Positions 3,668 to 46,825 of a stretch of 64,000 nucleotides of DNA are shown one piece after another. The notes beneath the pieces were generated by a model. That model had not been told where the DNA came from. It was given only the letters and a program-made list of their open reading frames with translations, and searched no databases. The number at the start of each line of letters is the position of its first letter. Position 1 is the stretch's first letter. This DNA is from an uncultured virus (IMG/VR IMGVR_UViG_3300050132_000502) (lineage: Duplodnaviria > Heunggongvirae > Uroviricota > Caudoviricetes): IMG/VR virus record IMGVR_UViG_3300050132_000502, one strand, 5' to 3'. The translations under genes were made by a program, and so were the position numbers.

Positions 3668-3709
3668 TCATCCTTCGCACCCATAGTTAGGGTTAGAGAC
3701 GGAGGTTTT

Positions 3710-4225
3710 ATGGTCAAGCGCCAGCCCAAAGGCACACCAGTCGGAGGTCAGTTCGCCGAAGGACGCAAGCCCGAAGGCAACGACCTCACTACCTCCTCCG
3801 TCAACCCCGGATTCGGCTCGCGCTACGGCGGCGGCGAGCACTACCTCACCGACGAGGGAGTCACCGTCACCATGTGGCGCAAGGGTCAGAAAGTCCGCTT
3901 CTATGACAACGAGGGGAACCAAGTTGGACCTGAGCAGTCCAACGTGGCTCCCGCTGTGGCGTACATCCACGCCAATGGCTGGCAATCGGAACTCGACTAC
4001 ACGGTCGTCAAGGCTCGCGAAGTGAAGAAGGGCGAGTACATCCTCCTGCACGGGACTATCTGCGAGGTCATGGACGAAGCGGAGATCGAGGCCGAGGAAG
4101 ACATCTTCGGCCAAAAACTCGACCGGCTTCGCCTTCGTCGCACGGACACTGACGAGGTAGGAACCATGCCCTTCGGCCCTCAAGGGATCGTGCGCTCACT
4201 GCCCTCCATGACCCGTACCAACTAA
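3710..4225 (+). CDS. Leader-tagged protein 1; C-terminal SH3-like barrel
   Basis: MVKRQPKGTPVGGQF; GGAGG RBS; AREVKKGEYILL. Confidence 0.85.
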   Translation: MVKRQPKGTPVGGQFAEGRKPEGNDLTTSSVNPGFGSRYGGGEHYLTDEGVTVTMWRKGQKVRFYDNEGNQVGPEQSNVAPAVAYIHANGWQSELDYTVVKAREVKKGEYILLHGTICEVMDEAEIEAEEDIFGQKLDRLRLRRTDTDEVGTMPFGPQGIVRSLPSMTRTN

Positions 4226-4268
4226 GCGACCTGTCGCACCCATAGTGAAGGATGAGACGGAGGACCGT

Positions 4269-5072
4269 ATGACCAATCGACAGCCGAAGGGCACACCCGT
4301 GGGTGGACAGTTCTCTGAAGGACGCAAGCCGGACGGCAGCGACTTAGTGGACGACCGCGACATTGCCACGCGGGACTACATGAACTCGCAGAGGGGGAAA
4401 CAGTTGCCCGCCCGCGATTACTCCCGTGAGGCTATCGACGCGCACAAGGACGCGATTCTCGACGCAGAGCAGAATGTGGAGTCAACCATCGGCTCCTACG
4501 CCCCGGACGCGCTTTTCAACAGCACGACCCGCGAACTTCACGACAACATGCAAACCATCGTTGACAACCAGAAAGAGATCATCTACGAACTCGAATCGCA
4601 ACTTCGCGCCATCCGCGAACAGCCGAGTCCGCGTGTCTACATTTCTCCCGACGGAAACTGGGGTGGGGCCGAAGGTCTACTTCTCTTGAGTGACGCCGAC
4701 GTCGAGAAGGTAGGCGACCTGAGCGAACTGTACGAGGAGTACGGGGACAACATGATCGACGGGGTGCGCGAGCGTCTCGAACCAAAGCCCGAGTTGGTGC
4801 TCTCCTACAACGACTGGCACGACGTCGCCGAAGCAGTGGGCAATCTCACCGACGCGTGGAATACGACTCAAAACTTCTCGCCAGAGATGGATACCGCCAT
4901 GAATCGTCTGTACTTCTCATATGACACGCCTCACGACATGGTGGTCAAGTCGATTGTGGACATTCAGAACGCATGGCGAGATGTCGATTGGGGTGATGAC
5001 CCGGACGCGGTGAAGATCGACAAACTGGTGGACTCACTCGGAGACTTCCTCACCACCAAGGAGCCGTCATGA
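4269..5072 (+). CDS. Leader-tagged protein 2, acidic helical cargo
   Basis: ATG 4269 after GGAGG; leader present. Confidence 0.85.
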   Translation: MTNRQPKGTPVGGQFSEGRKPDGSDLVDDRDIATRDYMNSQRGKQLPARDYSREAIDAHKDAILDAEQNVESTIGSYAPDALFNSTTRELHDNMQTIVDNQKEIIYELESQLRAIREQPSPRVYISPDGNWGGAEGLLLLSDADVEKVGDLSELYEEYGDNMIDGVRERLEPKPELVLSYNDWHDVAEAVGNLTDAWNTTQNFSPEMDTAMNRLYFSYDTPHDMVVKSIVDIQNAWRDVDWGDDPDAVKIDKLVDSLGDFLTTKEPS

Positions 5073-5758
5073 CCAACCGCCAACCCAAGGGCACACCCGT
5101 CGGAGGTCAGTTCTCAGAAGGACGTAAGCCCGAAGGCGGAGACCTCTACGACGAGGTAAACGACAGTGTTGAGGTCGAGGAGTTCGAGGGTAACCTCACC
5201 GCATCCTACGAGGGGTACGTCTTCACCATCTCACCGCCGGACCCCGAGGCGCATCGCGCTCATTGGACCGCAGAGTTTCGCGCCGACGAAAGTTCCGTCG
5301 AGCAGTACGCGACCAAGGGGGAGTTCGCTTCTTTCGAAGAGGCCACCGACCTGTTCAAGGAATGGCCCGCAGTCGTGAAGTCGATGACACACGCCAATGA
5401 CGGATTGAAGGCCAGCGCCGGAGACCTCGAACTCACGGAACGACTCAATGATGTCCATATCCTGTGGCAGGAATTCGACGACAACGAGCAACTCTACGAC
5501 GGAGAGTTTGAGCAAATCTATGCCGTGTTAGATGAGGCTACTCGACGACTCGACGGCGACCCGAACGATCCGACATCTACCAACGCGAAGAACCTCGAAC
5601 TCTCTGACAAAGTACACAACGCACACATTTTGATTCTGAACTTCGACAAGGACGGCACAGCGATCAGCCGAGATGACTTCGACTACATCACTGAGGCCAT
5701 TGAGGAAGCCCGAGAGACGCTGGGGGCTGGTGGTCCTCACGGGGCCGTCGCCGAGTAA
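5069..5758 (+). CDS. Leader-tagged protein 3, acidic, with internal helical repeat
   Basis: Leader; DLELTERLNDVHIL / NLELSDKVHNAHIL. Confidence 0.85.
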   Translation: MTNRQPKGTPVGGQFSEGRKPEGGDLYDEVNDSVEVEEFEGNLTASYEGYVFTISPPDPEAHRAHWTAEFRADESSVEQYATKGEFASFEEATDLFKEWPAVVKSMTHANDGLKASAGDLELTERLNDVHILWQEFDDNEQLYDGEFEQIYAVLDEATRRLDGDPNDPTSTNAKNLELSDKVHNAHILILNFDKDGTAISRDDFDYITEAIEEARETLGAGGPHGAVAE

Positions 5759-5760
5759 CG

Positions 5761-6474
5761 ATGAACCGGCAACCTAAGGGCTCGCCGGTCGGTGGTCAGT
5801 TCGCGCAAGGTCGCAAACCTGACGGACCAGAACTCGACTTCGAGGATGACGAGTTTGAGATCACCACTCTTGAGCATGACGGTCTTCCTGCGGCGACGTT
5901 CTCGCACGTAGTCCACATCGGATCGCTCGACGCGGACGAGAAGCGGGGGTGGTCGCTCGAAGGCGATGGTCTTTCCGTGTCAACGGAACCCGAGGCGTGG
6001 GAAGAGATCGCTGGTCTCGGAGGCAATCAGTGGTGGACGCTCACCAAGAGCAACAATGTCTTTCTGGATGCGCACGAACTCTCCGACGAGCAGCGTGACG
6101 TCATCAACAATTGGGGTGTTGAACGCGGCTATCTGGTCAAGCAGGACGGCTGGCGTATCGAGTGGTTCGACGACGAGATGGATGACACCATGAGCACTGT
6201 CCTCGACACCGAAGAAGAAGCGCGGGAGGAACTCGACACAATGGAGGTCGATCAAGAGCCGGTCCTCGTCGAGCAACTCGTCGCTGGTCCGAACTTTCCC
6301 GATGCGGCGGGAGCAAGCAACGCGGATCAGGTCATTTTGTCCGTATGGGCTGACGAAATGTCCGACTTCGATGGCGTGTGGTGGAATGACGACCTCGCGC
6401 CCGAGCATCTCAGTGCTCCCCGAGCCGTCATTTTCAAGAGCAGACTGGCGGAGTGGGGTCGCACCCATAACTAG
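5761..6474 (+). CDS. Leader-tagged protein 4; possible enzymatic (ART-like?) cargo
   Basis: Leader; HIGSL..GLSVS..FDGVWW..SAPRAVIF. Confidence 0.8.
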   Translation: MNRQPKGSPVGGQFAQGRKPDGPELDFEDDEFEITTLEHDGLPAATFSHVVHIGSLDADEKRGWSLEGDGLSVSTEPEAWEEIAGLGGNQWWTLTKSNNVFLDAHELSDEQRDVINNWGVERGYLVKQDGWRIEWFDDEMDDTMSTVLDTEEEAREELDTMEVDQEPVLVEQLVAGPNFPDAAGASNADQVILSVWADEMSDFDGVWWNDDLAPEHLSAPRAVIFKSRLAEWGRTHN

Positions 6475-6478
6475 AGAT

Positions 6479-7594
6479 ATGACTAAGCGCCAGCCCAAGG
6501 GCACTCCCGTAGGTGGACAGTTCGCCGAAGATCGCAAACCAGATGGTGCCGACCTGGTGAGACTTCCTGACGGTCGCGAGTTCCCCAGTGACTATGAAGA
6601 TGAGTTACGTGGTGAGACAGCGGCTCACGAACGTTCTGAGCCGAACGAGCACTCAATGCCGTCTGCTCTGGCCGGAAATGTCTCAAACGTGCAGGTGGGC
6701 TCACGAACTCCGTGGGGAACTGCCGACTACGTGAACCACATCGCACCAGGCATCGTCTCGGTCGCCACGCCGGGACACGGCGGAGTCAAACTCTCGCCCG
6801 AGCGCAACAAGAAGGTGCCCGTACCTTTGCGCACGAAGTCGGGCTGGTACGAAGAGGACTGCGAAGCGTACATCCCCATGATGGTCCACGCGGGTGACAT
6901 GAAGCGAACGGGCGAGTCCACCGAAGACGCATTCAAGCGATCCGAACTCGGCGTCATGAACTGGTTCCCCGAGGGATACGAGGAGGCTTACTCGGTGGAG
7001 TTGCCCGTCGGCGCGTCACTCATGAAGGACGAAAAGACCTGGCTGACGACACACGCTCTCGACGAGATCGCGATCTCCGCCATTGGGACGGGTGACGGAA
7101 TGGTCAAGGTCACGGTCTGCGTAGGTGGTCGCGCCAAGTACGGACACGATGGAGTATCCGAGCGCGAGATTCTCGTTCCTAAAGAGGAGTACGACAGCCC
7201 TGATTTCCGTCACCCCATCGGTAAGCACAGCGGGTCGTTCGTGGTGGATTCTCGACAGAACTACGAGGACGTAACTCCACCGCCGAAGGCCCCGAACCCT
7301 CCGGCCCCGCGCTATCGCGAGATCAATTTAGGGTTAGTAACGAACGCTCAACGTGAGAGAGCCCAACGCGACCTGGACAAGAGATATCGCTTCAGTAACG
7401 GCAGTGTCCAATCAGTGCGTGAGGTCATCGAGAGTGGTGGCATCGCCAGCAAGTCGTCAATGGAGAACAACGGTCGACGCACCTACTACCTACGACGAGC
7501 GATTGAGGCCGAGGGAGAACCGGGACAGGACACCTTCAACGCTCTGGAGGTTTCCAAGGCTCTATGGGACGCGGTCGTCGCGCCAGCGAATTAG
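6479..7594 (+). CDS. Leader-tagged protein 5; DUF7007-like domain
   Basis: Leader; RTPWG...TPGHGGVKLS...GWYEEDCE. Confidence 0.8.
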   Translation: MTKRQPKGTPVGGQFAEDRKPDGADLVRLPDGREFPSDYEDELRGETAAHERSEPNEHSMPSALAGNVSNVQVGSRTPWGTADYVNHIAPGIVSVATPGHGGVKLSPERNKKVPVPLRTKSGWYEEDCEAYIPMMVHAGDMKRTGESTEDAFKRSELGVMNWFPEGYEEAYSVELPVGASLMKDEKTWLTTHALDEIAISAIGTGDGMVKVTVCVGGRAKYGHDGVSEREILVPKEEYDSPDFRHPIGKHSGSFVVDSRQNYEDVTPPPKAPNPPAPRYREINLGLVTNAQRERAQRDLDKRYRFSNGSVQSVREVIESGGIASKSSMENNGRRTYYLRRAIEAEGEPGQDTFNALEVSKALWDAVVAPAN

Positions 7595-7617
7595 TTTTCG
7601 CACCCATAACTAGAGGT

Positions 7618-7860
7618 ATGACTAAGCGACAGCCAAAGGGCACACCAGTGGGCGGGCAGTTCGCCGAAGGCCGCAAGCCCGAGGGTGCAGAACTGACTAC
7701 CTCTCCCGATGAAAAGACGACCACCGTCAAGTGCTCAGACTGTCAAACGGAAATCGATCCACTTGACGTGTTCCCCGAGGGGCGTTGTCTCAACTGTCAT
7801 GCAGCCGTGACGCCGATGCCCACCGCCGAAGAAGTTCGACGAGCATGGGGGGTTCGATGA
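7618..7860 (+). CDS. Leader-tagged protein 6; small Zn finger
   Basis: Leader; CSDC...CLNC. Confidence 0.85.
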   Translation: MTKRQPKGTPVGGQFAEGRKPEGAELTTSPDEKTTTVKCSDCQTEIDPLDVFPEGRCLNCHAAVTPMPTAEEVRRAWGVR

Positions 7861-8405
7861 CCACACGTCAGCCCAAGGGCACCCCCGTCGGTGGACAGTT
7901 CGCAGAAGGACGCAAGCCCGAAGGGGTCGTGTTAGCGCCGGTTTCACCGCTGTTCAATAAGGCCACCGTCGTCGATCACCAACGTCAGGTCAAGATACTC
8001 GAAGCGGAGATCGAAGACCTCTATCAGGACGCCTTCGTCAACGACACGAAGCCCGACAGTAGCGATCTACTTGCTTTGAAGAACGACTTGATTCATCAGC
8101 AGCACGAGATCATCCGCAAGCAGGCCAAGGAACTCGCAGACCTCCAGAGAGATGCTGGTGACTTTCAACTGCGTGGCATCATTCGTGCCAACGTTCGCGA
8201 CCGTCTATCCAACGTCGTTGATCTTGGCGATGATGATGCCCGTATCCGCGAGTTCTACGCTCAGATTGACGAACTTATGGAGCACCACTTCGCTAGGTTC
8301 GCCCCTGAGGAGAATGATGCGCTAGACGGCGTTGCGGCATCGGAGACGAACTTCTTCATGAAGCGGCTCGACCTCGACACGATGTCACTGAAAAAGGATG
8401 CGTAA
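7857..8405 (+). CDS. Leader-tagged protein 7; coiled-coil cargo
   Basis: ATG 7857 (ATGA overlap); leader. Confidence 0.85.
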   Translation: MTTRQPKGTPVGGQFAEGRKPEGVVLAPVSPLFNKATVVDHQRQVKILEAEIEDLYQDAFVNDTKPDSSDLLALKNDLIHQQHEIIRKQAKELADLQRDAGDFQLRGIIRANVRDRLSNVVDLGDDDARIREFYAQIDELMEHHFARFAPEENDALDGVAASETNFFMKRLDLDTMSLKKDA

Positions 8406-9259
8406 TGACCAATCGACAGCCCAAGGGCTCACCCGTAGGTGGACAGTTCGCAGAAGGACGCAAGCCCGAAGGCGGAGACCTTTCCGTCACCGGGGAGAAC
8501 GATGCGAACATGGAACTTGCCGAGCGACTGAACCGACTCGACTGCATGATGCAAGACCTCGAAGAGTTCGGAGCATCCGTTCTCGATGGGGAGATGTCCT
8601 TCATCCACGCCACTCTCACGGATGCTCGTACCGCCCTCGCCGAGCCTGGTGCCACCTTCGAAGGCAGGTACAAGGACACGTTGCCCGACGTGAATCAAGA
8701 AGATGGCGTCTTCACTCTTGGCGATCACACCTATGAGTTCGAAAAGACGGGACCAGAGAACGACATCACGGAGTACACACTCACCAACGCCGAGGGTGGC
8801 GGAGGATGGCGTTTCGGCTACGACCGCCTGACCCGTCGCGTCACGGCGCATGGCGTCGCTCCAGTTCGCCCCTCGGCGGAGTGGCGTGACAAAGGTGAGG
8901 CGGACATCCGCACCGTGGCTCGCTTGTTCGAACCAGACGCGAGACTGATTCAACTCGATGGCGAGACATATCTCATCGGCGGAAATCCGTGGCCCCTCAG
9001 CCCCTCACACCTGCAAGGAATCGCTACCGGCGAGATGATGCTGAACAGTGGCAAGACCGAGCATGACCTTCGCGCCTACGTGTCCCAGCAGCGCAGCGAC
9101 ACGGCCCGAAGTGAGACCGAGCGTCCTGACATGGCGAAGTCGTTCGCGGAGACGCGTAGTTACATCGACGGAATTGAGATCGCCATCAACCTCGGCGAGG
9201 AAGCGGCGAAAGCCAACACCGTGGGTGCAATGGACGCACGCTTCAAGGAGAAGTCATGA
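8405..9259 (+). CDS. Leader-tagged protein 8; multi-module cargo
   Basis: Leader; TAATG overlap. Confidence 0.85.
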   Translation: MTNRQPKGSPVGGQFAEGRKPEGGDLSVTGENDANMELAERLNRLDCMMQDLEEFGASVLDGEMSFIHATLTDARTALAEPGATFEGRYKDTLPDVNQEDGVFTLGDHTYEFEKTGPENDITEYTLTNAEGGGGWRFGYDRLTRRVTAHGVAPVRPSAEWRDKGEADIRTVARLFEPDARLIQLDGETYLIGGNPWPLSPSHLQGIATGEMMLNSGKTEHDLRAYVSQQRSDTARSETERPDMAKSFAETRSYIDGIEIAINLGEEAAKANTVGAMDARFKEKS

Positions 9260-9750
9260 CCAATCGACAGCCCAAGGGCACACCCGTTGGTGGACAGTTC
9301 GCAGAAGGACGCAAGCCCGAGGGTGCTGATCTAGCATTCGTTAATCCTGACTTCAGTGTCAGGAATGAAGGAGCGAGCGCAGTGGTCTTAACTCCCGAGC
9401 AAGAAGAGGTAGCCGCTGCCTACAAGGTCGCGGCGCTCTGGTCGACCAGTGGTGACGACGACGAGCCGTTAGACGCCGAATACGGGATCGACCAGATCAG
9501 CGAAGAATCCAGTGAGGAGATCGCCAAGGACGTCGTCGAGTTTTGGGAGCGAGCGAAGGCCGAAGGTCTCACCGAGCATTGGACACCGGGGCAGTTCGGC
9601 CACGACTTCTATCTGACGCGGGCGGGGCACGGAGCCGGATTTTGGGATCGAGGATTCGGCTACGCGGGCGGGCGTCTCACCGAGATGGCCAAGTCCTACA
9701 AGGAAAAGACCCCTATCGTCGGGGACGACGGTTCAATCTATTTCGAGTAA
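9256..9750 (+). CDS. Leader-tagged protein 9; phage-type GHDFxLTRxGHGxGFWDR domain
   Basis: Leader; GHDFYLTRAGHGAGFWDRG. Confidence 0.85.
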   Translation: MTNRQPKGTPVGGQFAEGRKPEGADLAFVNPDFSVRNEGASAVVLTPEQEEVAAAYKVAALWSTSGDDDEPLDAEYGIDQISEESSEEIAKDVVEFWERAKAEGLTEHWTPGQFGHDFYLTRAGHGAGFWDRGFGYAGGRLTEMAKSYKEKTPIVGDDGSIYFE

Positions 9751-9792
9751 TCCTCTGTCGCACCCATAGTGAAGGATGAGACGGAGGATCGT

Positions 9793-10302
9793 ATGACCAA
9801 TCGCCAACCCAAGGGAACGCCAGTGGGTGGACAGTTCGCGGAAGGTCGCAAGCCCGAGGGTGGCGACTTGGAAGTTTCAAGCACATCCGTCGAGCCTCTC
9901 AAGAAGAAAATCTCGTTCGGAAAAGTTGACGGCTACGGCAACGGTCGCAAGAGTTGCTCCGTCGATGTTCAGGTCTCCATCTCGGAGAACAACGAAGGTC
10001 AAGCACGGTTGAGCATCCAGGGCAACGTATGGAACGCAGGCCACACTGACATCATCAGTGGCGGGCAGAACGTTGACGAAATGTTGCGACTCGTCGATGA
10101 CCCCAAGATGCGCGAGATCGCCGAAGTGTGGAAACGTTGGCATCTCAACGACATGCGTGTCGGGTGTGAACACCAGCGGACGCAGCCGAAGGGCTCTGTC
10201 GAGGTTGGACAGGAATGTCCCGAATGCAGTTATCGCTACGGTTCGGCGTGGCTCTACGAGGAACTCCCACCGGAGGTCATCGAGCAAGTGAGGTCGTGGT
10301 GA
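9793..10302 (+). CDS. Leader-tagged protein 10; WxxWHLNDM/Zn-ribbon domain
   Basis: Leader; WKRWHLNDMRVGCEHQ...CPECSYRYGSAW. Confidence 0.85.
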   Translation: MTNRQPKGTPVGGQFAEGRKPEGGDLEVSSTSVEPLKKKISFGKVDGYGNGRKSCSVDVQVSISENNEGQARLSIQGNVWNAGHTDIISGGQNVDEMLRLVDDPKMREIAEVWKRWHLNDMRVGCEHQRTQPKGSVEVGQECPECSYRYGSAWLYEELPPEVIEQVRSW

Positions 10303-11102
10303 CAAATCGCCAGCCCAAGGGCACACCCGTGGGAGGTCAGTTCTCCGAAGGCCGTAAGCCCGAGGGCGACGACCTGACCAACATCGAAGTTGATGGAGTT
10401 ACGGTTGCCGGATATCGCCACGTGGACATCGACGGCAATACCGAGACTCTCAACGCGGGCAACCAGTGCATCTCGTGTGGCCGGAGCAGTGGCCTCGTCA
10501 ATCGCGTCTCGTCAGAGCGTTCGAGTGAGGACGGCATCCGTGTCGCGGGCTATATGTGCGCGGAGTGCGACGGCTGTGAGGACGGAACAACCCTTCGTTG
10601 GTGCAGCGAATGTGGGGACTTCACCGCTGGAGATGAAGAAGGCGTCTGTCACGAGTGTGGCAGTGAGCAAGACGGCTCTGTTCCCACCGATGGCGTTGAC
10701 GAAGACTCCTACCTTGCACGTTGTACCCAGTGCACGGGTGAGACGACCTTCGACTTCGAGGTGTTCGCACACCGACTGAAGGGCGACAACTTGATGACCA
10801 AAGTTGGGACGACCTACGGAGAAGTCAAGATTGGCGAATGGGTGCCAGCGGTGTTCCCCGAGACCTTGATGCAGATTTTGAGGATAGAGCACGAAGGTCC
10901 AGAGGACTACGAAGGGTGGAGTGCACAGAGCCTCGCTCAGATTCTCAAAGAGCGTGATCTCACGACGGCCAAGGTAACGGACGTGCTCGACATCTTCAAT
11001 GACGGCAGTGGTGACGTCGCGTCGGTGGCCTTCGATCCAAAACGCGGCATCAACCAAGTCATGCTGGAGATCAACGGAACGTTGGAGAGGATCACGCAAT
11101 GA
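10299..11102 (+). CDS. Leader-tagged protein 11; multiple CxxC Zn ribbons
   Basis: GTG 10299; leader; CISC, CAEC, CSEC, CHEC, CTQC. Confidence 0.85.
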   Translation: MTNRQPKGTPVGGQFSEGRKPEGDDLTNIEVDGVTVAGYRHVDIDGNTETLNAGNQCISCGRSSGLVNRVSSERSSEDGIRVAGYMCAECDGCEDGTTLRWCSECGDFTAGDEEGVCHECGSEQDGSVPTDGVDEDSYLARCTQCTGETTFDFEVFAHRLKGDNLMTKVGTTYGEVKIGEWVPAVFPETLMQILRIEHEGPEDYEGWSAQSLAQILKERDLTTAKVTDVLDIFNDGSGDVASVAFDPKRGINQVMLEINGTLERITQ

Positions 11103-13285: not shown

Positions 13286-13295
13286 GAGGAGAAGG

Positions 13296-34200: not shown

Positions 34201-34203
34201 CGG

Positions 34204-37839: not shown

Positions 37840-38079
37840 TTACTTGGCCCTCTGTAGATGAGTGTTGATGAAGTTGCGGATGTGAGGAATGATATTTGCT
37901 CCGTTGTGCGTGTAGAGGTACCACGTCACGGCGATCACCACCACGATGAGAATCATCGAGATCAGTCGAGAGAATATCTCGCTCGCCACCGAGAGGAGGG
38001 CTATGAGGATGAGGGCGATGACAATGTGTGGTCCGGTGAGTAACTTCATTTGACTGTTCTCTAACCCCAAGAAATTCAC
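37840..38079 (-). CDS. Small membrane protein
   Basis: Two hydrophobic helices; overlaps the hydrolase stop. Confidence 0.6.
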   Translation of the reverse strand: MNFLGLENSQMKLLTGPHIVIALILIALLSVASEIFSRLISMILIVVVIAVTWYLYTHNGANIIPHIRNFINTHLQRAK

Positions 38080-40775
38080 GCCGCCGCTCCCCCGCCTTCA
38101 AAGCCGTCGCTATACCAAGGAATGATCTGGACGTCGCTGCCTTCTTCAGGAGCCTGAATGATCATTGGCGTGAACGTGGTGACCGTCTGCGTGAACGTGT
38201 TGCCGGTCGGACTGCCCGAGCACGTCGTTGACAACTCCACCAAGCCCGACATCACCTTGGACGTCACACACGAAGAGACAGTGCTGGTTGTGGGCGTGCC
38301 GGTCTGGACCATCCCGAGGAACATCACCACGTGATCGGGAAGTCCCGTTGAGTCAGGGAAGTAGAAGAGGAGGTCACCCGGTTCCATTGTGGTCATGTCC
38401 TGGGAGATACCCGACTGCGCTTGCACGTACTCGTACTGCGCCTGTGACGTTCGAGGCAACGCGACTCCGGCTTTGCCAAAGGAGTATTGGACAAGACCCG
38501 AGCAGTCGAATCCGGGATCGCCGGTCTGCGTCGCGTACTCAGCGGAACACGGGTTTCCTGATCCGTAGATCGCGGTCGAGACGACGAAGCCTCCAGAGCA
38601 CGCGGGTGCGCCGTACCCAGCAAGCCCCATGCCTACGCCCGCCGTGCCACCGCCACCGTAGACGTACGGGATGCCAACTTCTGTCTTCGCGGTAGTGACG
38701 GCGAGTTGCGCCTGCGGACTTCCACCGGGCACGTTGGGAATGTTTGATCCGTAGTTGCACGAGGGCAGTGTGTCGGTGAGGCTCTGCACAATGAGTGCCG
38801 CTGCTGACGACCACGGTTGGAGCACGGACACTGACGTCCCGAGCGTTGCGGCCTGTGCCGCTGGTGAAGCACTACGAATCTTGTCGCCCGACAAGAACTG
38901 AGAAACCGCATCGGGCACACTGGTGATGTCGTTGCCGAAGACGCCCGTCGTTGGGTAAAGAGAACTTTGTCCCAGCGTCGATCCGGTGAGTGCGTCAATG
39001 ATCATCGCCTCTTCCGTCGAACTGTTCGCGCCACGAGCCTTGGCAACATTCACGATCTTCTCCGCCAACTGCAACTGCCCCTGTGTGAGCACCAAGGTGC
39101 CGGTAGGACTGGAGACAGTGAGTGAGGTTGGTTGTGAGCCGCCCGTACCGCACGACTGATTTGCCTGAGGAGACCATCCCGCCGCCCAGTCGGTTGCCAA
39201 AAGATAGATGTTCTGATCCATCGTCACGGAGTTGTTCGCAATAGGCAACATGCCAAGAGCCTTGACGACGGCAGATCGAAGACTCTGCGCCGCCGAGTTC
39301 GTTGGGTCGAACGTCGGTATGACGAGACCGTTCGAGTTCACTCCTTGCAACAGGCTCACGTTGCCTTCGGCTTTTGACTTGTAGAGGTCCTTCGCCAGCG
39401 TGGTGCCGAACCACTCTGAAGAAAGCGAGAGGCTGGTCGCGCTCGCTGCGGGGAGAGCGGTCGTCGTGACGCAATATGGTCCACTGGACTCTGCCGGACA
39501 CGTGCCACTGCTCGTAGACGAAGGATTCGACGCCGACGTCTTCAGGGCAGTCCCCGTGTACGATCCGGGCACCTCAACGCCAGGGGCTATGGCCGAGATA
39601 GTGGGCGGTGGACTCTTGCCAGGAGCATTGATCGTGCAAGCATCGTCCCACCCTGGATAGAAACTGTTGGGGTGATTATTGAGGATGAAGAGGGCCGCAG
39701 CATTCTGCGCTGCCGGGGTTGCTTGGTACGGTTGCGACGCACCATATTGCGTGGAGAAACCGTCCGCCACCCACGTTGACTCAAGGATGCCGTACGCACC
39801 CGATGGCGCACTCGCGCTGTTGTATGCATCACCGGATTCCGCTTGACGGATGCACGCCCAGTCCGCCGTGTCAATGGTGGAGTAGTCCGTCGATGACGGG
39901 TCGATGGTGGCTGGCACTGATCCGTTGCGGCCTACCTCACAGTCAATGCCGACTCCGACGTAACCAACCGACGACACGCACGCACTCGTCGTCGGGGTTG
40001 CTGCCGTACCCGTGCTACTAGGACTCGATGAACCCGCCGACGAAGCGGTGAGAGGAACGACCGATGGGCAAATCGAGTCTGGTGCCGAACCAGCCGGACA
40101 CGCTCCTCCCGTCTGCGCAACATTGGACCCGACTCCCGTTTCGTAATAGACTGTCGCCGCCATCAACTCCCACGGCGTGATTGATGATTCCGCCGCGTCC
40201 TGAATCGACGCGAGGTTGTTCGCTGGCTCACCCGTACTCGTCGTGGCCGATGAGGTCTGCTGGGCGTTGTTGGCAATGAGTGAGTTCACGGTGGCACCCA
40301 CGCCGAGCAACAGACTGATCCACAAGAAGACCGGCAAGAGCGGCAAGAAGATCAGCGCCAGTATCCAACGACCCTTGGTCGTCGTGAGGACACCTTTGAC
40401 GAGGCCAACGGCTGCACCTTGAAGACCGCCACCCACGACCGCACCTTCAGCGGACTTTCCGGTGGCCCCCTTAACGGTGTCCTTGAGGATTTTTCCGGTC
40501 TTCGCCTTGGCCGACGTGTTCTTGTTGGCGTCACGTTCCGCCTTGAGACCTTTCGGAGTGAGACCCTTGGCGTCAGGCACACCGGCTTTCTTCGCGACCT
40601 TGCCACCGACCTTCTTGGCCGTTTCCGATTCCGCCTTCTTCGTGGCTCCAGCACTCTCTTTGCCGGGTGGTGGTCCAATCGCCTTGTGTTTCTTCTCTAC
40701 GTTCAGCGGAGGTTTGCGACTAGAGACTTTCTTGCCCGCATTCGATGCGGCGTTGGGAAGCCGTGGATCAGACAT
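38076..40775 (-). CDS. Conjugation peptidoglycan hydrolase: Rpf-like transglycosylase plus NlpC/P60
   Basis: TM; DWACIRQAESG...GAYGI..STW; PYVYGG..GFDCSGLVQY..LPRTS..QY..PGDLLF..HV. Confidence 0.85.
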   Translation of the reverse strand: MSDPRLPNAASNAGKKVSSRKPPLNVEKKHKAIGPPPGKESAGATKKAESETAKKVGGKVAKKAGVPDAKGLTPKGLKAERDANKNTSAKAKTGKILKDTVKGATGKSAEGAVVGGGLQGAAVGLVKGVLTTTKGRWILALIFLPLLPVFLWISLLLGVGATVNSLIANNAQQTSSATTSTGEPANNLASIQDAAESSITPWELMAATVYYETGVGSNVAQTGGACPAGSAPDSICPSVVPLTASSAGSSSPSSTGTAATPTTSACVSSVGYVGVGIDCEVGRNGSVPATIDPSSTDYSTIDTADWACIRQAESGDAYNSASAPSGAYGILESTWVADGFSTQYGASQPYQATPAAQNAAALFILNNHPNSFYPGWDDACTINAPGKSPPPTISAIAPGVEVPGSYTGTALKTSASNPSSTSSGTCPAESSGPYCVTTTALPAASATSLSLSSEWFGTTLAKDLYKSKAEGNVSLLQGVNSNGLVIPTFDPTNSAAQSLRSAVVKALGMLPIANNSVTMDQNIYLLATDWAAGWSPQANQSCGTGGSQPTSLTVSSPTGTLVLTQGQLQLAEKIVNVAKARGANSSTEEAMIIDALTGSTLGQSSLYPTTGVFGNDITSVPDAVSQFLSGDKIRSASPAAQAATLGTSVSVLQPWSSAAALIVQSLTDTLPSCNYGSNIPNVPGGSPQAQLAVTTAKTEVGIPYVYGGGGTAGVGMGLAGYGAPACSGGFVVSTAIYGSGNPCSAEYATQTGDPGFDCSGLVQYSFGKAGVALPRTSQAQYEYVQAQSGISQDMTTMEPGDLLFYFPDSTGLPDHVVMFLGMVQTGTPTTSTVSSCVTSKVMSGLVELSTTCSGSPTGNTFTQTVTTFTPMIIQAPEEGSDVQIIPWYSDGFEGGGAAA

Positions 40776-40778
40776 GGA

Positions 40779-43700
40779 CTACGACTCGTTCATCTCATCA
40801 AAGAAGTGATCCGCTCGTCGATTGAACTCTTCGTTGTCAGCCTCTCTACGAGCATCGTCGTCTTGGCGGGCTGGTGCTACGTCGGGATCGAGCGGGTTGC
40901 CTGAGGAGCGTTCTCTTGGATCAACTGGCTCGCGTGTCGGAGTCTCTCCGCCGGTCTCGACATGAACGGTGCGACTCGTGGGGGTTTGCCATTCGTTCAA
41001 GCGTCGATTGGTGGCATCAACCTCATCAGGGCTCAAGACGTGAGCATCGTCTGCCGTCGTGTATCTACCATCGGGCGACGTCGTGGGTCCTTGATCGTCT
41101 GGCGTCAATACAGAAGGTTGACGAACAGACCTATCCGGCTTGGTGATTCCATGACGACGAGTGTGCAACTTGCGACCAACCGCCGCCGCGCCCACCGCAC
41201 CAGCCGCAATTGCCCCGAGACCAAGAACGCCTGCGCCGACGGGAGCCATCGCAAGACCCACCGTGCCAATCGCGGCATACTTGGCTGACTTTCTACCGGC
41301 GACCGCAACCTTCCCCATTACCGACTTACCCCTCATTGCCTCAAGTGGATGAGGTCCTACGTACTTGGCACCGTTGACCAATCTACTGCCCACTGCTTTC
41401 GCGGTATCTTTCGCTCCGGCGACGCGATGAGTTGCCCCTTCTGCATCACGCTTGCTCATCTTCGCCCGAGCCGCCGCCGAGAAGTTCTTCGCTCTCGCCG
41501 CTGCTGAAACCTTGGTCGTCCCTCGTCCACCGGCTGTCGCACCCTCGACACCAGCGGCGGCTTGTGTAGCGGCTAAACCTTCGGTGGTCGTATCGCCGCC
41601 GGTTGGAGTTCCTCCGGTATCACTGTCTCCGCTGGGCGCTCCAGAACCGGCATCATGCTCTCCGGCTTTCCCGGCACCACTTCCGCTTCCGCCGCGACCT
41701 CCACCAGACATTCCGCCTCGACGGTGTCGACCACCACCTCGACGACCAGCAATGGCACCAGCACCAGGTACGCCGTTGTTCGATGCGTAGTTGCCCGCCA
41801 TACGACGAGCCTTGGCCCAGTGGCTCTCCAGTTCAGCGCCACCGATGGCACCCAGTGTTCCGGCTGATGCCGCGTATCCCATCACGCTCGATGGCTTGAA
41901 GGGAGACGGAGCCTTCAGAACTTTCTTGAAGAACATGTGGATGATGTAGATGGAGACGAGTGGGCAAAGTCCGATCCACAGCAGAGCGAAGATCGAACCT
42001 GGTCCCGTCAGCGCCGAACCAACCGTCGCGAGCATTGATGAGATGCCCGCGATAACTGAAAGCACGAGTCCCACGCACGTTGAGAAGATGACCAGGCTCA
42101 ACGTCTTCTTCGCCATCATCAAGAACTTGCCTTCGCTGTTCGCAAACGGCAACAGCATGAAGATCAGCATGATGGGCAACATCAAGAGCAGTAAGAGGAG
42201 CGCGATCTTAGAGATGAGCAACGCAATGGAGAGTCCGAAGAAGACCAGCATGATGATGGTCGAGGAGAACAGGAACAGGAGAGCCGCCGTCTCCGCACTG
42301 ACGTTCGACGTGCCGTGCAAGTTGTTCAAGTAATCAGCAATGCCCGCTCCGTACTGCTCTCCGTTGATCGTGCTGGCCGGAGCGCCATCGACCGTCAGGC
42401 CGCTGGGAACCGTGCCCGAAGTGTCGCTCTCGATGTTGGCCGGAGTTGCGGCCCACCAATTGAAGACTGAGTAGTCGGAGTTCGCGATGCCACCGGCCAT
42501 CACCGTCGGCGTCCCGTACGTCGTGCCGCCGTTGTCGTGTACCGGGGTCTCAAAGAATGCTTGACAATCGTCTGCTGCCACTGCCGCGCTACCGCTCGGG
42601 GTGACGCTGTTGTCTACTTGGGTCCATTCGGAGGGGCTGATGAGACCACCACTCTGCACGTCCCACTCCATTGGCATGTCGGTACTCGCGTTGGTTTGAC
42701 ACGCGGCCCAACCGACCATCGATTCGTCTTGCGTCTGCGGAGAGATCGCACCGTTCCACGCGAGTGACGACGACGACGAAGAACCGGTGCTACCAAGAAT
42801 CCCGCCGCTCACGGCCCCCGAACTTTGATCGTACGTTCCGGCGAGAGAGGGCGACTCCGAGAGAGCAATCGCCGCGCTCTCCATCTGCGCCTGATATCTC
42901 GGACGGATACCCGCGTTCTGTTCAAGAAGGTGACAGTACGAGAGTAAGCCGAAGTTGTTGCTCGAACCGAACTGTTCCTCAACGTAAGTAGGAACCGCGA
43001 GACCTTCCCACAGTGTGTTGAGGGCTATGGGGACAGCGGCGTAGTTCGAGCCCACACCAGCACTGCCTCCATCGGCGGCGGAGACTCCGCCCGCCGCGCC
43101 CGAGTAGGTGTCAACGAGAGCCTCGTTGTAGTAGTAGCAGTTGAGCGGATCGCCAAGAGCCTGTCCACCGCCATTCGCCCCAATGCCCGACACGGCAGCG
43201 GCCATGAGTTCGGTTGGTTTGGACGTGATCGCACTCACGGTTCCGTACACGGTATTGAGTATCCACGCGGGAGAGAAGGTGGGATCGGGATTTGTCGCCG
43301 TTGTCGCTGACGAAGCGTTGATCATCAAGGTGAAAATCGCCACCACAACGACAATGCGAAAGAGACTGCTGAGGAGACCTTTGCCACTGCCGCGTATCCG
43401 ACTGATGAGCAGAGCCACGAGAGCGACGATGACGACAATGACGATGATGTTGCCCTGGACGAGCGCATTGTCAAACGCCGCCGACGCACTGTCCACCGCC
43501 GTGCCGACTGATGACGAGATGCAGAAATTGTTCGCGAACTCTGTTGATGAGACACCGAGCCCCCACTCGGTGTCGCCTGCTGACATTAGCGGGGAGATCA
43601 GTCCACTGCGCTGGGCGTAGGCAATGTCGTTGCCGATGTTGAAGCCGAGTGAAAGATCGGTGTGCGTCGTTCCGAGCGAGCCAAGCCAACGATTCGCTGG

Positions 43701-43910
43701 CAGGTAGTTCGATGCGGTGGTCGAGGCCGCGACACTGCTTGCGGTTGAGGTCGGACAAAGAGTCGTAGCCCCGGTGGTCGCGGCGGGAGTGGTGGTGGGT
43801 GGTGTCGTTCCGGCTGATGCGGACGAGACGGCGATGAAGAGGGGAAAGATCGAGGCAACGAGTAGCGCAAGGAAGCCTTTAACTACTCGTTGAGACCACA
43901 CCTTTCTCAT
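40779..43910 (-). CDS. Large polytopic membrane protein, VirB6/TcpH-like
   Basis: Signal peptide, multiple TMs, Gly/Ala/Arg-rich disordered C-terminus; position in cluster. Confidence 0.65.
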   Translation of the reverse strand: MRKVWSQRVVKGFLALLVASIFPLFIAVSSASAGTTPPTTTPAATTGATTLCPTSTASSVAASTTASNYLPANRWLGSLGTTHTDLSLGFNIGNDIAYAQRSGLISPLMSAGDTEWGLGVSSTEFANNFCISSSVGTAVDSASAAFDNALVQGNIIVIVVIVALVALLISRIRGSGKGLLSSLFRIVVVVAIFTLMINASSATTATNPDPTFSPAWILNTVYGTVSAITSKPTELMAAAVSGIGANGGGQALGDPLNCYYYNEALVDTYSGAAGGVSAADGGSAGVGSNYAAVPIALNTLWEGLAVPTYVEEQFGSSNNFGLLSYCHLLEQNAGIRPRYQAQMESAAIALSESPSLAGTYDQSSGAVSGGILGSTGSSSSSSLAWNGAISPQTQDESMVGWAACQTNASTDMPMEWDVQSGGLISPSEWTQVDNSVTPSGSAAVAADDCQAFFETPVHDNGGTTYGTPTVMAGGIANSDYSVFNWWAATPANIESDTSGTVPSGLTVDGAPASTINGEQYGAGIADYLNNLHGTSNVSAETAALLFLFSSTIIMLVFFGLSIALLISKIALLLLLLMLPIMLIFMLLPFANSEGKFLMMAKKTLSLVIFSTCVGLVLSVIAGISSMLATVGSALTGPGSIFALLWIGLCPLVSIYIIHMFFKKVLKAPSPFKPSSVMGYAASAGTLGAIGGAELESHWAKARRMAGNYASNNGVPGAGAIAGRRGGGRHRRGGMSGGGRGGSGSGAGKAGEHDAGSGAPSGDSDTGGTPTGGDTTTEGLAATQAAAGVEGATAGGRGTTKVSAAARAKNFSAAARAKMSKRDAEGATHRVAGAKDTAKAVGSRLVNGAKYVGPHPLEAMRGKSVMGKVAVAGRKSAKYAAIGTVGLAMAPVGAGVLGLGAIAAGAVGAAAVGRKLHTRRHGITKPDRSVRQPSVLTPDDQGPTTSPDGRYTTADDAHVLSPDEVDATNRRLNEWQTPTSRTVHVETGGETPTREPVDPRERSSGNPLDPDVAPARQDDDARREADNEEFNRRADHFFDEMNES

Positions 43911-43965
43911 GCTTTCGTCTTTCTTCACGCATTCTGGTCGCTCCGTTTGCACACCTTGAGTGGGC

Positions 43966-44268
43966 TTATCCGCCGAATGCCTTTAGAACGATATTGCAAA
44001 ACCCATCAACAATGTCCAAGAGGTAGCCGATGAACGTGCTGGGGTCCGACAGAATCATTCCGAGGATCACGGTCAGAATCAATCCAATGTGACTCCCTCG
44101 CTGGCCTTTGCGACGGTCCATGATGTACTTGACCGCCGAGAAGATGACCAAGAGCACACCAACGAAAGCCATCCACTTCGTGACCACTCCGATGCCAGAG
44201 GCTCCACTCAAGGTGGTCCAAAAACTCTTCCAACTGGAGGTGAAGTCCACGGTCGCTGCTACTAACAT
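43966..44268 (-). CDS. Small two-TM protein, VirB2/pilin-like
   Basis: 100 aa, two hydrophobic helices around a basic loop; first gene of operon. Confidence 0.5.
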   Translation of the reverse strand: MLVAATVDFTSSWKSFWTTLSGASGIGVVTKWMAFVGVLLVIFSAVKYIMDRRKGQRGSHIGLILTVILGMILSDPSTFIGYLLDIVDGFCNIVLKAFGG

Positions 44269-44300: not shown

Positions 44301-44309
44301 TATGGGTGC
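44301..44309 (-). promoter_or_regulatory. Motif A upstream of the conjugation operon
   Basis: tatgggtgc is the reverse complement of GCACCCATA, 32 nt before the 44268 start. Confidence 0.7.
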
Positions 44310-46159: not shown

Positions 46160-46186
46160 GTAATTCCCTTCGGTTCTTCCTTCTAT

Positions 46187-46195
46187 TATGGGTGC
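46187..46195 (-). promoter_or_regulatory. Motif A upstream of protein 30
   Basis: GCACCCATAAT on the minus strand. Confidence 0.7.
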
Positions 46196-46241
46196 GAAAT
46201 GTGACATCTTGTGGGATTCCGTTATCCCTCAAGGAGATGGC

Positions 46242-46790
46242 CTACGGAGTGGCCCTTGGGATGCTGTAGCCGTTCTCGGTGGCCCAGTCGAAGAAGTAAT
46301 CGACCTCCTGCGCCCGAAGATCGGCGAGACCTTTGATGTCAGCAGGATCGTTCAAATTGAAGTACAGATCGACGACTTCGGATACCTCTTCACGCTGAGT
46401 GTCCTCGCTGATGTCGTCGTCGTACAGAGCCTCGTCGAGAATTTCGTTGCGGATGGACTGACTGAAACTGTCTTGATTTTGATTCGCGTCCGCCAATTTT
46501 TTCTGGAGGGCTTCGATCATCATAGATTTCTGAAAGTCGATATCTTGATAACGACTTGACAACTTCTCGTAGTGCTTGGCGTGATCCAAGGGAGTCAACG
46601 TGCCATTCTCGTCCGCTTGACGGTGGGCACGGATGAGTTCATCAATCGAATTCGACGTCTCCATGATCAAAGTCTCACGATCAGCAAGCGTCGTGGGCTC
46701 AAAATCATTGTCGAGATCACTACCGTCGGGCCTGCGTCCTTCTGAGAACTGTCCACCGACGGGGGTTCCCTTCGGTTGTCGATTCGTCAT
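46242..46790 (-). CDS. Leader-tagged protein 31; cargo similar to protein 7
   Basis: MTNRQPKGTPVGGQFSEGRRPDGSDL; AAGGAG RBS. Confidence 0.85.
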   Translation of the reverse strand: MTNRQPKGTPVGGQFSEGRRPDGSDLDNDFEPTTLADRETLIMETSNSIDELIRAHRQADENGTLTPLDHAKHYEKLSSRYQDIDFQKSMMIEALQKKLADANQNQDSFSQSIRNEILDEALYDDDISEDTQREEVSEVVDLYFNLNDPADIKGLADLRAQEVDYFFDWATENGYSIPRATP

Positions 46791-46816
46791 CTTCGCTCCT
46801 TCGTCTCACCCTTAGT

Positions 46817-46825
46817 TATGGGTGC
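46817..46825 (-). promoter_or_regulatory. Motif A upstream of protein 31
   Basis: GCACCCATAACTAAGGGTGAGACG on the minus strand, similar to array copies. Confidence 0.7.

What the first reader, a model, noticed from the sequence alone, without database searches (positions are those of the whole stretch)
3677..46825. One promoter-like motif (GCACCCATA) links the tagged array and the conjugation operon
Seen: 13 exact copies, all in gene orientation. Ten split the array into units (1 | 2-4 | 5 | 6-9 | 10-16 | 17-20 | 21-23 | 24 | 25-26 | 27-28). Two precede tagged genes 30 and 31. The only copy before an untagged gene (44301-44309) heads the pilin-like/VirB6-like/hydrolase/TcpC-like/VirB4-like run. 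Inference: cargo and transfer machinery form one regulon, which favours conjugative delivery of the tagged proteins.
Basis: partly seen in the sequence, partly recalled or inferred. Interest (0 to 1): 0.85.

Follow-up and report, generated by a model that had tools for sequence, protein, structure and literature searches.

The report
Shared promoter box on peat megaplasmid
A nine-base signal, very probably the core of a plasmid-specific promoter, stands in front of every separately started group of 'tagged' genes and of the DNA-transfer channel genes on a giant plasmid-like element from peat, so the two sets are probably switched on together, but this does not show that the tagged proteins travel through the channel.

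Summary
GCACCCATA occurs 13 times (0.15 expected), always in gene orientation and 9-32 nt before a start codon. Ten copies head the units of a 28-gene N-terminally tagged array, two head further tagged genes, and one heads the pilin-like/VirB6-like/hydrolase operon. Two metagenomic relatives (VirB6-like 58-60% identical) carry 7 more exact copies, all before tagged or T4SS genes, including the orthologous T4SS head with diverged flanks. The block is 8/9 identical to GCACACATA, the general promoter-like block of an Arthrobacter megaplasmid. There it lies 6 nt before leaderless start codons and often has a -35-like partner. By that geometry the start site here is the 7th base after the 9-mer, a G in 17 of 20 sites. 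Untagged genes in the window use a different block, GGGGCTAG (8 copies, 0.62 expected). So the 9-mer is most likely one class of an element-private promoter code, specific to tagged and T4SS units. No transcript data exist. In the Arthrobacter-type relatives, tagged genes and T4SS operons carry different blocks. Co-regulation is plausible in this lineage; conjugative delivery remains unsupported.

The parts
3677..3685 (+). 9-mer copy 1, heads tagged gene 1 (3710-4225); predicted start site G at 3692
4236..4244 (+). 9-mer copy 2, heads tagged genes 2-4 (4269-6474)
6461..6469 (+). 9-mer copy 3, overlaps the end of gene 4, heads tagged gene 5; ATG 9 nt after the block (predicted 3-nt leader)
7600..7608 (+). 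9-mer copy 4, heads tagged genes 6-9; ATG 9 nt after the block (predicted 3-nt leader)
9760..9768 (+). 9-mer copy 5, heads tagged genes 10-16
13674..13682 (+). 9-mer copy 6, heads tagged genes 17-20
15990..15998 (+). 9-mer copy 7, heads tagged genes 21-23
17648..17656 (+). 9-mer copy 8, heads tagged gene 24
18710..18718 (+). 9-mer copy 9, heads tagged genes 25-26
20047..20055 (+). 9-mer copy 10, heads tagged genes 27-28
44301..44309 (-). 9-mer copy 11, heads the pilin-like/VirB6-like/NlpC-P60 operon; the block is invariant in the orthologous spacers of L032 and L033
46187..46195 (-). 9-mer copy 12, heads the divergently tagged gene 45236-46159
46817..46825 (-). 9-mer copy 13, heads tagged gene 46242-46790
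36928..36936 (-). Degenerate copy GCACCCAAT before gene 36362-36898 and the tagged gene 35721-36368 inside the T4SS run; the exact 9-mer stands at the orthologous site in L032 (16707) and L033 (16783)
3710..21876 (+). Array of 28 genes that share the N-terminal tag MTNRQPKGTPVGGQFAEGRKPEGxDL
30808..44268 (-). Co-directional T4SS-like run: 100-aa gene, VirB6-like, NlpC/P60 hydrolase, small membrane genes, a tagged gene, VirB4-like AAA_10 ATPase, APH-fold kinase-like gene
21905..21912 (+). Contrast class: GGGGCTAG before untagged gene 21952-22950. The other exact copies are at 26852 (+) and 51547, 53978, 55925, 57323, 61647, 63105 (-)

Best explanation
GCACCCATA is the invariant core of one class of an element-specific ('private') promoter. 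I infer that it occupies about -15 to -7 relative to the transcription start. It has no conserved -35 partner. I infer that it is read by a specialised holoenzyme or activator supplied by the element rather than by the host's housekeeping sigma alone. Transcription would start at the 7th base after the block, usually a G. This would give 15-26-nt leaders with a GGAGG-type ribosome site at 11 window sites and 3-nt, near-leaderless leaders at two. Genes inside a unit are read by translational coupling. In this lineage the class is used only for the tagged-gene units and for two units of the T4SS cluster. Other genes of the element use a second block, GGGGCTAG, at the same distance from minimal-leader start codons. 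Shown: the occurrence, orientation, position, conservation and class specificity of the block. Inferred: promoter function, the start-site position, the recognising factor, and co-regulation of tagged genes and T4SS.
For: (1) There are 13 copies against 0.15 expected. All are in gene orientation and all lie at the non-overlapping junctions of gene runs. (2) The selection acts on nucleotides. The 9 positions are invariant in 20 of 20 sites across three elements. In contrast, synonymous positions of the adjacent tag-coding sequence are scrambled (entropy 1.31 bits at codon position 3 against 0.18 and 0.17 at positions 1 and 2, 27 genes). In the orthologous T4SS-head spacer, only the 9-mer and the ribosome site are kept. 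(3) The block is homologous to a promoter-like block with diagnostic geometry. On the Arthrobacter sp. zg-Y1110 plasmid, GCACACATA (8/9 identical) occurs 121 times. In 63 of 121 a start codon lies exactly 6 nt downstream (leaderless geometry), and in 79 of 121 a GGTGAG-like block lies upstream at a fixed distance. On pACHL01, CCG[CT]ACAC occurs 224 times, and in 112 of these a start codon lies exactly 9 nt after the 8-mer. (4) Transferring that geometry predicts the start site at the 7th base after the 9-mer. That base is G in 17, A in 2 and C in 1 of 20 sites, and G in 12 of the 13 window sites. In 4 of 20 sites a start codon lies exactly 9 nt after the block. (5) A second block, GGGGCTAG (8 copies, 0.62 expected), heads 8 of 8 untagged ORFs and no tagged one. 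In minimal-leader cases it shows the same 9-nt spacing to ATG. (6) The block is a non-palindromic, one-directional, contiguous stretch, which suits a promoter element better than a dimeric operator. (7) Relatives encode their own sigma. pACHL01 has a 990-aa helicase-Sigma70 r2/r3/r4-HA fusion. (8) There is a published precedent. [quoted passage not shown]
Against: There are no transcript data for this element. 20 public runs hold the DNA and none is on record as RNA. No -35-like block is conserved. The block lacks the A at -11 and T at -7 of sigma-70-type -10 boxes. The spacing to minimal-leader start codons is 9 nt here against 6 nt in the Arthrobacter plasmid, so the transferred start site implies a 3-nt leader that has not been observed. 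No terminator-like sites separate the units (7 found in 3000-22500 against 16.7 expected; none at unit ends), so read-through from upstream could express the array without internal promoters. No sigma or other candidate recognising factor lies in the window or in L032/L033. Only 64 kb of the replicon is visible.
Confidence: 0.7

Rival explanations
1. The 9-mer is an operator, the binding site of an element-encoded repressor or activator laid over otherwise ordinary promoters. It defines a regulon but is not itself the polymerase-recognition element.
For: The authors of the pMP7017 study read their 34-bp motif overlapping the -10 box as a likely transcription-factor site (PMC10832533, passage read). 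Absolute invariance of 9 bases is stronger than is usual for -10 boxes. HTH-domain genes lie in the T4SS clusters of relatives.
Against: The block is asymmetric and strictly one-directional. No second half-site or inverted repeat is conserved. No sigma-70-like promoter underlies the sites: 4 matches were found in 3000-22500 against 4.4 expected, and none lies at a motif. The homologous blocks in relatives sit at a fixed 6-nt distance from leaderless start codons and pair with a -35-like block, which is how a promoter core behaves.
Confidence: 0.13
2. The block works in RNA. It is a processing or cleavage site, or a binding site for an RNA-binding protein, that cuts a long read-through transcript into unit mRNAs or sets their translation or stability.
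For: There are no terminators or -35 boxes between units, and spacers are as short as 4-43 nt. The block lies 9-32 nt upstream of start codons. In 3 of 13 sites the block pairs with a downstream GGGTG to form a hairpin (z below -2).
Against: No structure is shared: the mean z is -0.73 and the T4SS head has none. In the homologous general class of relatives, a DNA-level -35-like block occurs at fixed spacing in 79 of 121 and 96 of 160 sites. An RNA site does not predict this.
Confidence: 0.08
3. The block has no function of its own. It is a hitch-hiking piece of a duplicated 5' module (leader plus tag) kept alike by recent duplication or gene conversion, or a recombination site for cassette shuffling.
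For: Some leaders are near-identical paralogues, for example 4236 and 9760. Contigs from other peat samples join units differently, with breakpoints between the 9-mer leader and the tag (tables 5 and 5c).
Against: The T4SS-head copy has an unrelated leader and no tag, yet it keeps the block in 3 of 3 elements. Synonymous sites of the adjoining tag are saturated, so there is no ongoing homogenisation. Only 10 of the 28 genes in the array are preceded by the block (one is the array head, nine are internal junctions), so it is not a per-cassette site. No inverted repeats of the attC kind are present.
Confidence: 0.05

Closest known systems
Promoter-like blocks private to Micrococcales megaplasmids (GCACACATA on the Arthrobacter sp. 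zg-Y1110 plasmid NZ_CP104273.1; CCGCACACAT on pACHL01 NC_011879.1), as seen here and in earlier scan note e1-7840584
   Same: 8/9 and 7/9 identity of the core. Strict gene orientation and position at unit heads. Purine or start codon at a fixed short distance. Same plasmid family (VirB4-like about 50% identical). The same N-terminal tag family is present: 42, 30 and 35 copies in pACHL01, W02 and W04.
   Different: In those plasmids the block is the general promoter (121-160 sites, nearly all untagged genes), has a GGTGAG-like -35 partner and lies 6 nt before leaderless ATGs. In the window it has no -35, lies 9 nt before minimal-leader start codons, and in the visible DNA is limited to tagged and T4SS units. 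The exact 9-mer is not enriched in those plasmids (4, 2, 1, 4 and 0 copies in W01-W05, against 3, 1, 16, 2 and 2 for the control). I found no published description.
pMP7017 (Bifidobacterium breve conjugative megaplasmid) 34-bp motif regulon, PMC10832533
   Same: A plasmid-specific conserved motif overlaps the -10 region of many promoters on a conjugative actinobacterial megaplasmid: 19 sites, 56 genes, about 24% of coding capacity (passages read). Its VirB4-like ATPase is a distant homologue, about 28% identical.
   Different: That motif is 34 bp long, AT-rich and laid over a canonical TATACT -10 box. The exact 9-mer is absent from pMP7017 (0 copies), as is the tag (0 matches). Its gene set was reported as defence, replication, transcription and carbohydrate metabolism, not T4SS plus a tagged family.
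Leaderless housekeeping promoters of Actinobacteria (TANNNT, then ATG/GTG about 6-7 nt downstream; recalled knowledge)
   Same: A short -10-proximal block with the start site 6-7 nt downstream. Near-leaderless geometry at 4 of 20 sites.
   Different: The core CCCATA has neither A at -11 nor T at -7. A 9-base invariant block extends upstream. Most sites have 15-26-nt leaders with a ribosome site.
Promoter classes of phages and plasmids read by element-encoded sigma factors, and regulons that co-express secretion machines with their substrates (for example the Agrobacterium vir boxes; recalled knowledge)
   Same: Several distinct short promoter classes occur on one mobile element. One class is shared by a secretion machine and a large family of accessory genes.
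   Different: The recognising factor is unknown. No timing or expression data exist. Substrate status of the tagged proteins is untested.

Membership tests
Sigma-70 housekeeping promoter (TTGACA-N17-TATAAT; actinobacterial TANNNT) | -10 hexamer with A at position 2 and T at position 6 | tested here: not met
   At the inferred -12 to -7 the block reads CCCATA. The consensus scan of 3000-22500 found 4 sites against 4.4 expected, none at a motif copy.
Sigma-70 housekeeping promoter (TTGACA-N17-TATAAT; actinobacterial TANNNT) | -35 hexamer 16-18 nt upstream | tested here: not met
   Across the 20 sites, no position from -50 to -4 exceeds 0.6 bits.
Micrococcales megaplasmid private promoter (GCACACATA / CCGCACACAT type) | Core block GCAC-N-CAT-R in gene orientation at unit heads | tested here: met
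   GCACCCATA against GCACACATA is 8/9; against GCACACATG it is 7/9. All 20 sites are in gene orientation.
Micrococcales megaplasmid private promoter (GCACACATA / CCGCACACAT type) | Start codon at a fixed 6 nt after the block (leaderless) | tested here: inconclusive
   Here 4 of 20 sites have a start codon at exactly 9 nt, not 6. The base at the 7th position after the block is G in 17 of 20, which fits a start site there. No 5'-end data exist.
Micrococcales megaplasmid private promoter (GCACACATA / CCGCACACAT type) | GGTGAG-like -35 block about 16 nt upstream of the core | tested here: not met
   It is absent from the 20 sites. It is also mostly absent from the tagged-gene subclass of relatives: 4 of 40 sites in W02 and 4 of 64 non-AT sites in pACHL01.
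Micrococcales megaplasmid private promoter (GCACACATA / CCGCACACAT type) | Element-encoded sigma factor | not testable with these tools
   pACHL01 has a helicase-sigma fusion. No homologue lies in the window, L032 or L033. The rest of the replicon is not held.
pMP7017 34-bp promoter motif | The published 34-bp consensus over a TATACT box | tested here: not met
   The 9-mer has 0 copies on pMP7017. The published consensus shows no likeness to the block by eye; I did not align the two.
Single-subunit (T7-like) polymerase promoter | A T7-like RNA polymerase gene on the element | tested here: inconclusive
   PF00940 gave no match in 3 related plasmids, but the control genomes did not ring either. 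Only part of the window's replicon is visible.
Single-stranded-DNA promoters of plasmid leading regions (Frpo type; recalled) | A long conserved hairpin that mimics a duplex promoter | tested here: not met
   Mean fold z is -0.73. Only 3 of 13 sites fall below -2, and the T4SS head has no hairpin.
Gram-positive-type conjugative T4SS (for the operon headed by copy 44301) | VirB4-family ATPase, VirB6-like polytopic protein, cell-wall hydrolase | tested here: met
   AAA_10 E 1.2e-9. NlpC/P60 E 2.6e-13. TrbL E 0.0018 and CD3337/EF1877 E 1.8e-4 are both below their cut-offs. The ATPase is 47-51% identical to ATPases of eight Micrococcales megaplasmids and about 28% to that of conjugative pMP7017.
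Gram-positive-type conjugative T4SS (for the operon headed by copy 44301) | Relaxase and coupling protein | tested here: not met
   None was recognised among the 77 window ORFs scanned against Pfam. PLSDB types the related plasmids as non-mobilizable. Either gene may lie outside the 64 kb.

The most novel reading that the evidence does not exclude
The element runs a phage-like, multi-class private transcription code. One -35-less class (GCACCCATA), read by an element-encoded factor, fires the T4SS channel genes and about 30 N-terminally tagged genes together. The 25-residue tag would then be a new N-terminal translocation signal, and the array a strain-variable arsenal of proteins injected into recipients during conjugation. 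Relatives include a tagged Fic-family protein and tagged DUF2958 proteins.
Probability: 0.15. Interest if true: 0.9.

Novelty: new variant of a known kind. Interest (0 to 1): 0.62.

Why it matters
Giant actinobacterial plasmids are common in soil but their biology is almost unknown. This work shows that one lineage marks its transcription units with short invariant blocks that differ from host promoters. It also shows that the block in front of a 30-member family of N-terminally tagged proteins is the same block that heads the conjugation-channel operon. That gives a concrete, testable regulon: one 9-mer, about 15 units and a predicted start site. It also gives a handle for finding the factor that reads the block, and a way to ask when the tagged proteins are made relative to transfer. 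The comparative result matters too. Related plasmids use several promoter classes, a dedicated class for tagged genes, and a helicase-sigma fusion. This suggests a private transcription programme comparable to that of large phages, which I did not find described (searches; the pMP7017 study is the nearest).

Tried and rejected
Whole-replicon scan: no genome is held for the window, and the metagenome contigs behind L032/L033 cannot be searched whole.

Near-identical DNA in plasmids: none. VirB4-like protein in the phage collection: none. VirB6-like protein in genome contigs: none. Tag profile in genome contigs: 4 weak hits in unrelated taxa, not used. Tag profile in viral contigs: none.

Expression: no RNA holder is listed among the 24 runs, 20 of which hold the DNA.

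Read laying on four peat runs returned contigs only. 40 of 531 variant positions were shown, and none of those 40 falls in a 9-mer. The list is cut, so this says nothing about conservation.

T7-like polymerase: PF00940 had no match in 3 relatives, but the control failed.

A shared hairpin or ssDNA-promoter structure: rejected. Sigma-70 consensus promoters and terminators in the array: at or below chance.

GGG[CT]TAG as a 7-mer is not enriched (15 found, about 20 expected from plain shuffles). Only the 8-mer GGGGCTAG is enriched. GCATAG as a hexamer is not enriched on pACHL01 (79 against 76 for the control). Only the two-block form, about 22 sites picked by eye, looks like a class.

Function of the tagged proteins: Pfam, PHROGs and NCBIfam gave DUF7007, beta-helix repeats, KTSC and a few phage families of unknown function, nothing more.

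Literature on the tag sequence, pACHL01 promoters and plasmid sigma factors: nothing relevant. Supplements of PMC10832533 were not opened.

Complex prediction, structure prediction and the large protein searches were not used, because no binding claim is made.

Full report
**Observation.** GCACCCATA occurs 13 times in the 64-kb window, against 0.15 expected from dinucleotide shuffles (largest 2; 0 of 100 shuffles reached 13). Ten copies lie on the + strand between 3677 and 20055, and three on the - strand at 44301, 46187 and 46817. Every copy points the same way as the gene just downstream and ends 9 to 32 nt before its start codon.

My gene table shows 28 consecutive + strand genes (3710-21876) that begin with MTNRQPKGTPVGGQFAEGRKPEGxDL (alignment A1). 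The 10 junctions with the motif have gaps of 4-92 nt. The 18 junctions without it have -8 to +10 nt, meaning overlapping or abutting genes.

The copies at 46817 and 46187 precede two more tagged genes. The copy at 44301 precedes a 100-aa gene that opens a co-directional run down to 30808. That run holds a VirB6-like protein (weak TrbL and CD3337/EF1877 matches), an NlpC/P60 hydrolase and a VirB4-like AAA_10 ATPase. 'Pilin-like' and 'TcpC-like' found no family match. None of the five one-mismatch variants sits at a gene head.

**What the element is.** No whole genome is held. Twenty public runs hold the stretch; those with an organism label (16) are peat metagenomes or, in one case, 'metagenome', four carry no label, and none is on record as RNA. 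The VirB4-like ATPase is 47-51% identical to ATPases on eight 375-608-kb megaplasmids of Arthrobacter, Pseudarthrobacter, Paenarthrobacter and Curtobacterium. It is about 28% identical to that of the conjugative Bifidobacterium megaplasmid pMP7017. The window also encodes a Pol III alpha subunit, ThyX, helicases and a MoxR/VWA pair. The tag family recurs on the relatives: 42 genes on pACHL01, 30 and 35 profile matches on two other Arthrobacter-type plasmids, 3 on a Curtobacterium plasmid, and none on pMP7017.

**Conservation.** A metagenome scan with the VirB6-like protein found two relatives, L032 and L033 (58-60% identical). They carry 4 and 3 exact copies of the 9-mer, all on the gene strand and none on the other.

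- Three of these copies precede tagged genes.
- Two precede the orthologous 100-aa/VirB6-like operon.
- Two precede a T4SS-internal unit made of a 10-codon mini-ORF, a 178-aa gene and a tagged gene.

In the three-way alignment of the T4SS-head spacer, only the 9-mer and the ribosome-site block AAGGGAGTCACC are kept; the flanks have diverged. At the T4SS-internal site the window has a degenerate GCACCCAAT (36928-36936).

Across the 20 sites the nine positions are invariant. The consensus extends to kTyGCACCCATARnkARnG, and nothing upstream of -4 is conserved. In contrast, the tag-coding DNA next to the blocks is saturated at synonymous positions (entropy 1.31 bits at codon position 3 against 0.18 and 0.17 at positions 1 and 2, 27 genes). 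So the block is held by selection on nucleotides, not by recent copying.

**Why a promoter.** I scanned two related plasmids whole.

- On pACHL01, CCG[CT]ACAC occurs 224 times. 160 of these continue with AT, and 96 of the 160 have a GG[N][GC]A block at a fixed distance upstream. In 112 of the 224 a start codon lies exactly 9 nt after the 8-mer.
- On the Arthrobacter sp. zg-Y1110 plasmid the top over-represented 9-mer is GCACACATA, with 121 copies. 63 have a start codon exactly 6 nt downstream, and 79 have the -35-like block.

This is the geometry of a two-block promoter that drives leaderless mRNAs.

The window's block differs from GCACACATA at one base. Carrying the geometry over puts the start site at the 7th base after the block. 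That base is G in 17, A in 2 and C in 1 of the 20 sites, and G in 12 of 13 in the window. The predicted leaders are 15-26 nt with GGAGG-type ribosome sites at 11 window sites, and 3 nt at 6476 and 7615. Four of the 20 sites have a start codon exactly 9 nt after the block.

There is no shared hairpin (mean z -0.73). There is no excess of sigma-70-like promoters or terminators in the array. pACHL01 encodes a 990-aa protein that fuses an SF2 helicase to Sigma70 regions 2-4 and an HA domain. No homologue is visible in the window or in L032/L033.

**Class specificity.** The window has a second recurrent block, GGGGCTAG: 8 copies against 0.62 expected.

- All eight precede untagged ORFs in the same orientation. 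Among them are the MoxR ATPase, a DUF3846 protein, the Pol III gene and the gene upstream of ThyX. None precedes a tagged gene.
- Set against the 12 tagged heads and 1 T4SS head of the 9-mer, this gives Fisher p 4.4e-5.
- In minimal-leader cases GGGGCTAG also lies 9 nt before the ATG (57330 in the window, 5094 in L033). The two blocks therefore appear to occupy the same promoter position.
- Orthologues of the GGGGCTAG-headed genes carry the general class on pACHL01.
- A single CCCGTC-N13-GATAAT site before Pol III resembles a further class of the relatives.

**Limits of the 'one regulon' reading.** In L032/L033 the T4SS cluster is a mosaic. The 9-mer heads its first and third units, and GGGGCTAG heads the middle one.

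On the Arthrobacter-type plasmids the tagged genes have their own subclass. On pACHL01 it is GCACACA followed by A, C or G: 22 of the 29 tagged genes that carry the motif. On the other plasmid it is GCACACAG[AG]: 14 of 40 sites are tagged, against 1 of 121 for the general block. This subclass mostly lacks the -35-like block.

The T4SS operons there use different blocks. CCCGTC-N12-GCATAG stands before the VirB4-cluster heads. CTACGCATGT stands before the pilin-like/VirB6-like genes, and 0 of 26 sites of that class are tagged on W02.

A dedicated promoter class for tagged genes is therefore shared across the family. Sharing that class with the T4SS is specific to the window's lineage. Shared expression says nothing about export. 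pACHL01 also carries its own secY, secE and secG among the tagged arrays, which offers a rival route. A tagged Fic-family protein and tagged DUF2958 proteins on pACHL01 fit an effector-like or establishment role, but they are annotation only. The tagged proteins of the window have almost no family matches.

**Comparison with what is known.** The nearest published case is pMP7017. There, RNA-seq and promoter mapping revealed a 34-bp motif overlapping the -10 box of 19 promoters predicted to drive 56 genes, and the authors read it as a likely transcription-factor site (PMC10832533; passages read; supplements not opened). That motif is unrelated in sequence, and pMP7017 has neither the 9-mer nor the tag. 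I found nothing in print on pACHL01 promoters, on the tag, or on plasmid sigma factors of this group.

**Verdict.**

- The motif is most likely (0.7) the core of one class of an element-private promoter.
- Its restriction to tagged and T4SS units is supported within the 110 kb I could see.
- Co-regulation is plausible.
- Conjugative delivery of the tagged proteins is not supported by this evidence.
- No transcript data exist for any of these elements in the tools available.

Noticed in passing
window 21905, 26852 (+); 51547, 53978, 55925, 57323, 61647, 63105 (-): A second promoter-like block, GGGGCTAG (8 copies, 0.62 expected), precedes only untagged genes. The variant GGGGTTAG lies before the intein-bearing helicase at about 49030. 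The block is conserved before the MoxR and DUF2201 orthologues in L033.
   Followed up: partly
pACHL01 (NC_011879.1) 377249-380221; L038 15250-18222: A 990-aa fusion of an SF2 helicase (ResIII/DEAD plus Helicase_C), Sigma70 regions 2, 3 and 4, and a helicase-associated (HA) domain lies next to the plasmid's dnaE. It is a candidate reader of the plasmid-wide promoter.
   Followed up: partly
pACHL01 and NZ_CP104273.1, whole records: At least four promoter-like classes occur per plasmid: a general class (GGTGAG-N14-CCGCACACAT[A/G], 120-160 sites, leaderless), a tagged-gene subclass without -35, CCCGTC-N12-GCATAG(A/G), and CTACGCATGT (26-36 sites).
   Followed up: partly
window 3001-23000, contigs of runs X17-X20: Contigs from other peat samples join the array differently. 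For example, the leader after the 9-mer at 17648 joins to the start of tagged gene 7 at 7857 in three runs, and the leader after 20047 joins to 17678 or 4269. Other tagged genes follow the first unit. This suggests strain-level cassette turnover, with breakpoints between the promoter leader and the tag. Assembly artefacts at repeats are not excluded.
   Followed up: no
L032 16707-16766; L033 16783-16842: A conserved 10-codon mini-ORF starts exactly 9 nt after the T4SS-internal 9-mer (ATG in L032, GTG in L033). The window's orthologous spacer is shorter and lacks it.
   Followed up: no
pACHL01 11238-12836 and 50166-50444: The megaplasmid encodes its own SecG, SecY and SecE, set among the arrays of tagged genes. 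This is a possible alternative export route for tagged proteins. No Sec genes lie in the 64-kb window.
   Followed up: no
pACHL01 26062-27330; 216054-217076; 391487-392287; 357317-358354: Tagged genes with annotated domains: a Fic-family protein, two DUF2958 proteins, and one with a weak Sigma70_r2 match (E 0.001, below cut-off).
   Followed up: no
window 46834-48993 (-): A superfamily-1 helicase-like gene carries a LAGLIDADG/Hom_end intein-type insert (Pfam E 1.7e-9 and 2.4e-6).
   Followed up: no
window 26924-26957 (+): CCCGTC-N13-GATAAT lies 66 nt before the Pol III alpha gene. It resembles the CCCGTC-N12-GCATAG class that precedes dnaE on pACHL01. It is the only such site at a gene head in the window; the regex hit one other place (8751, - strand).
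   Followed up: partly
Curtobacterium plasmid NZ_CP126255.1 (W03): The control word for the 9-mer (the pattern read backwards) occurs 14 times on one strand and twice on the other. This hints at yet another plasmid-specific recurrent block there.
   Followed up: no
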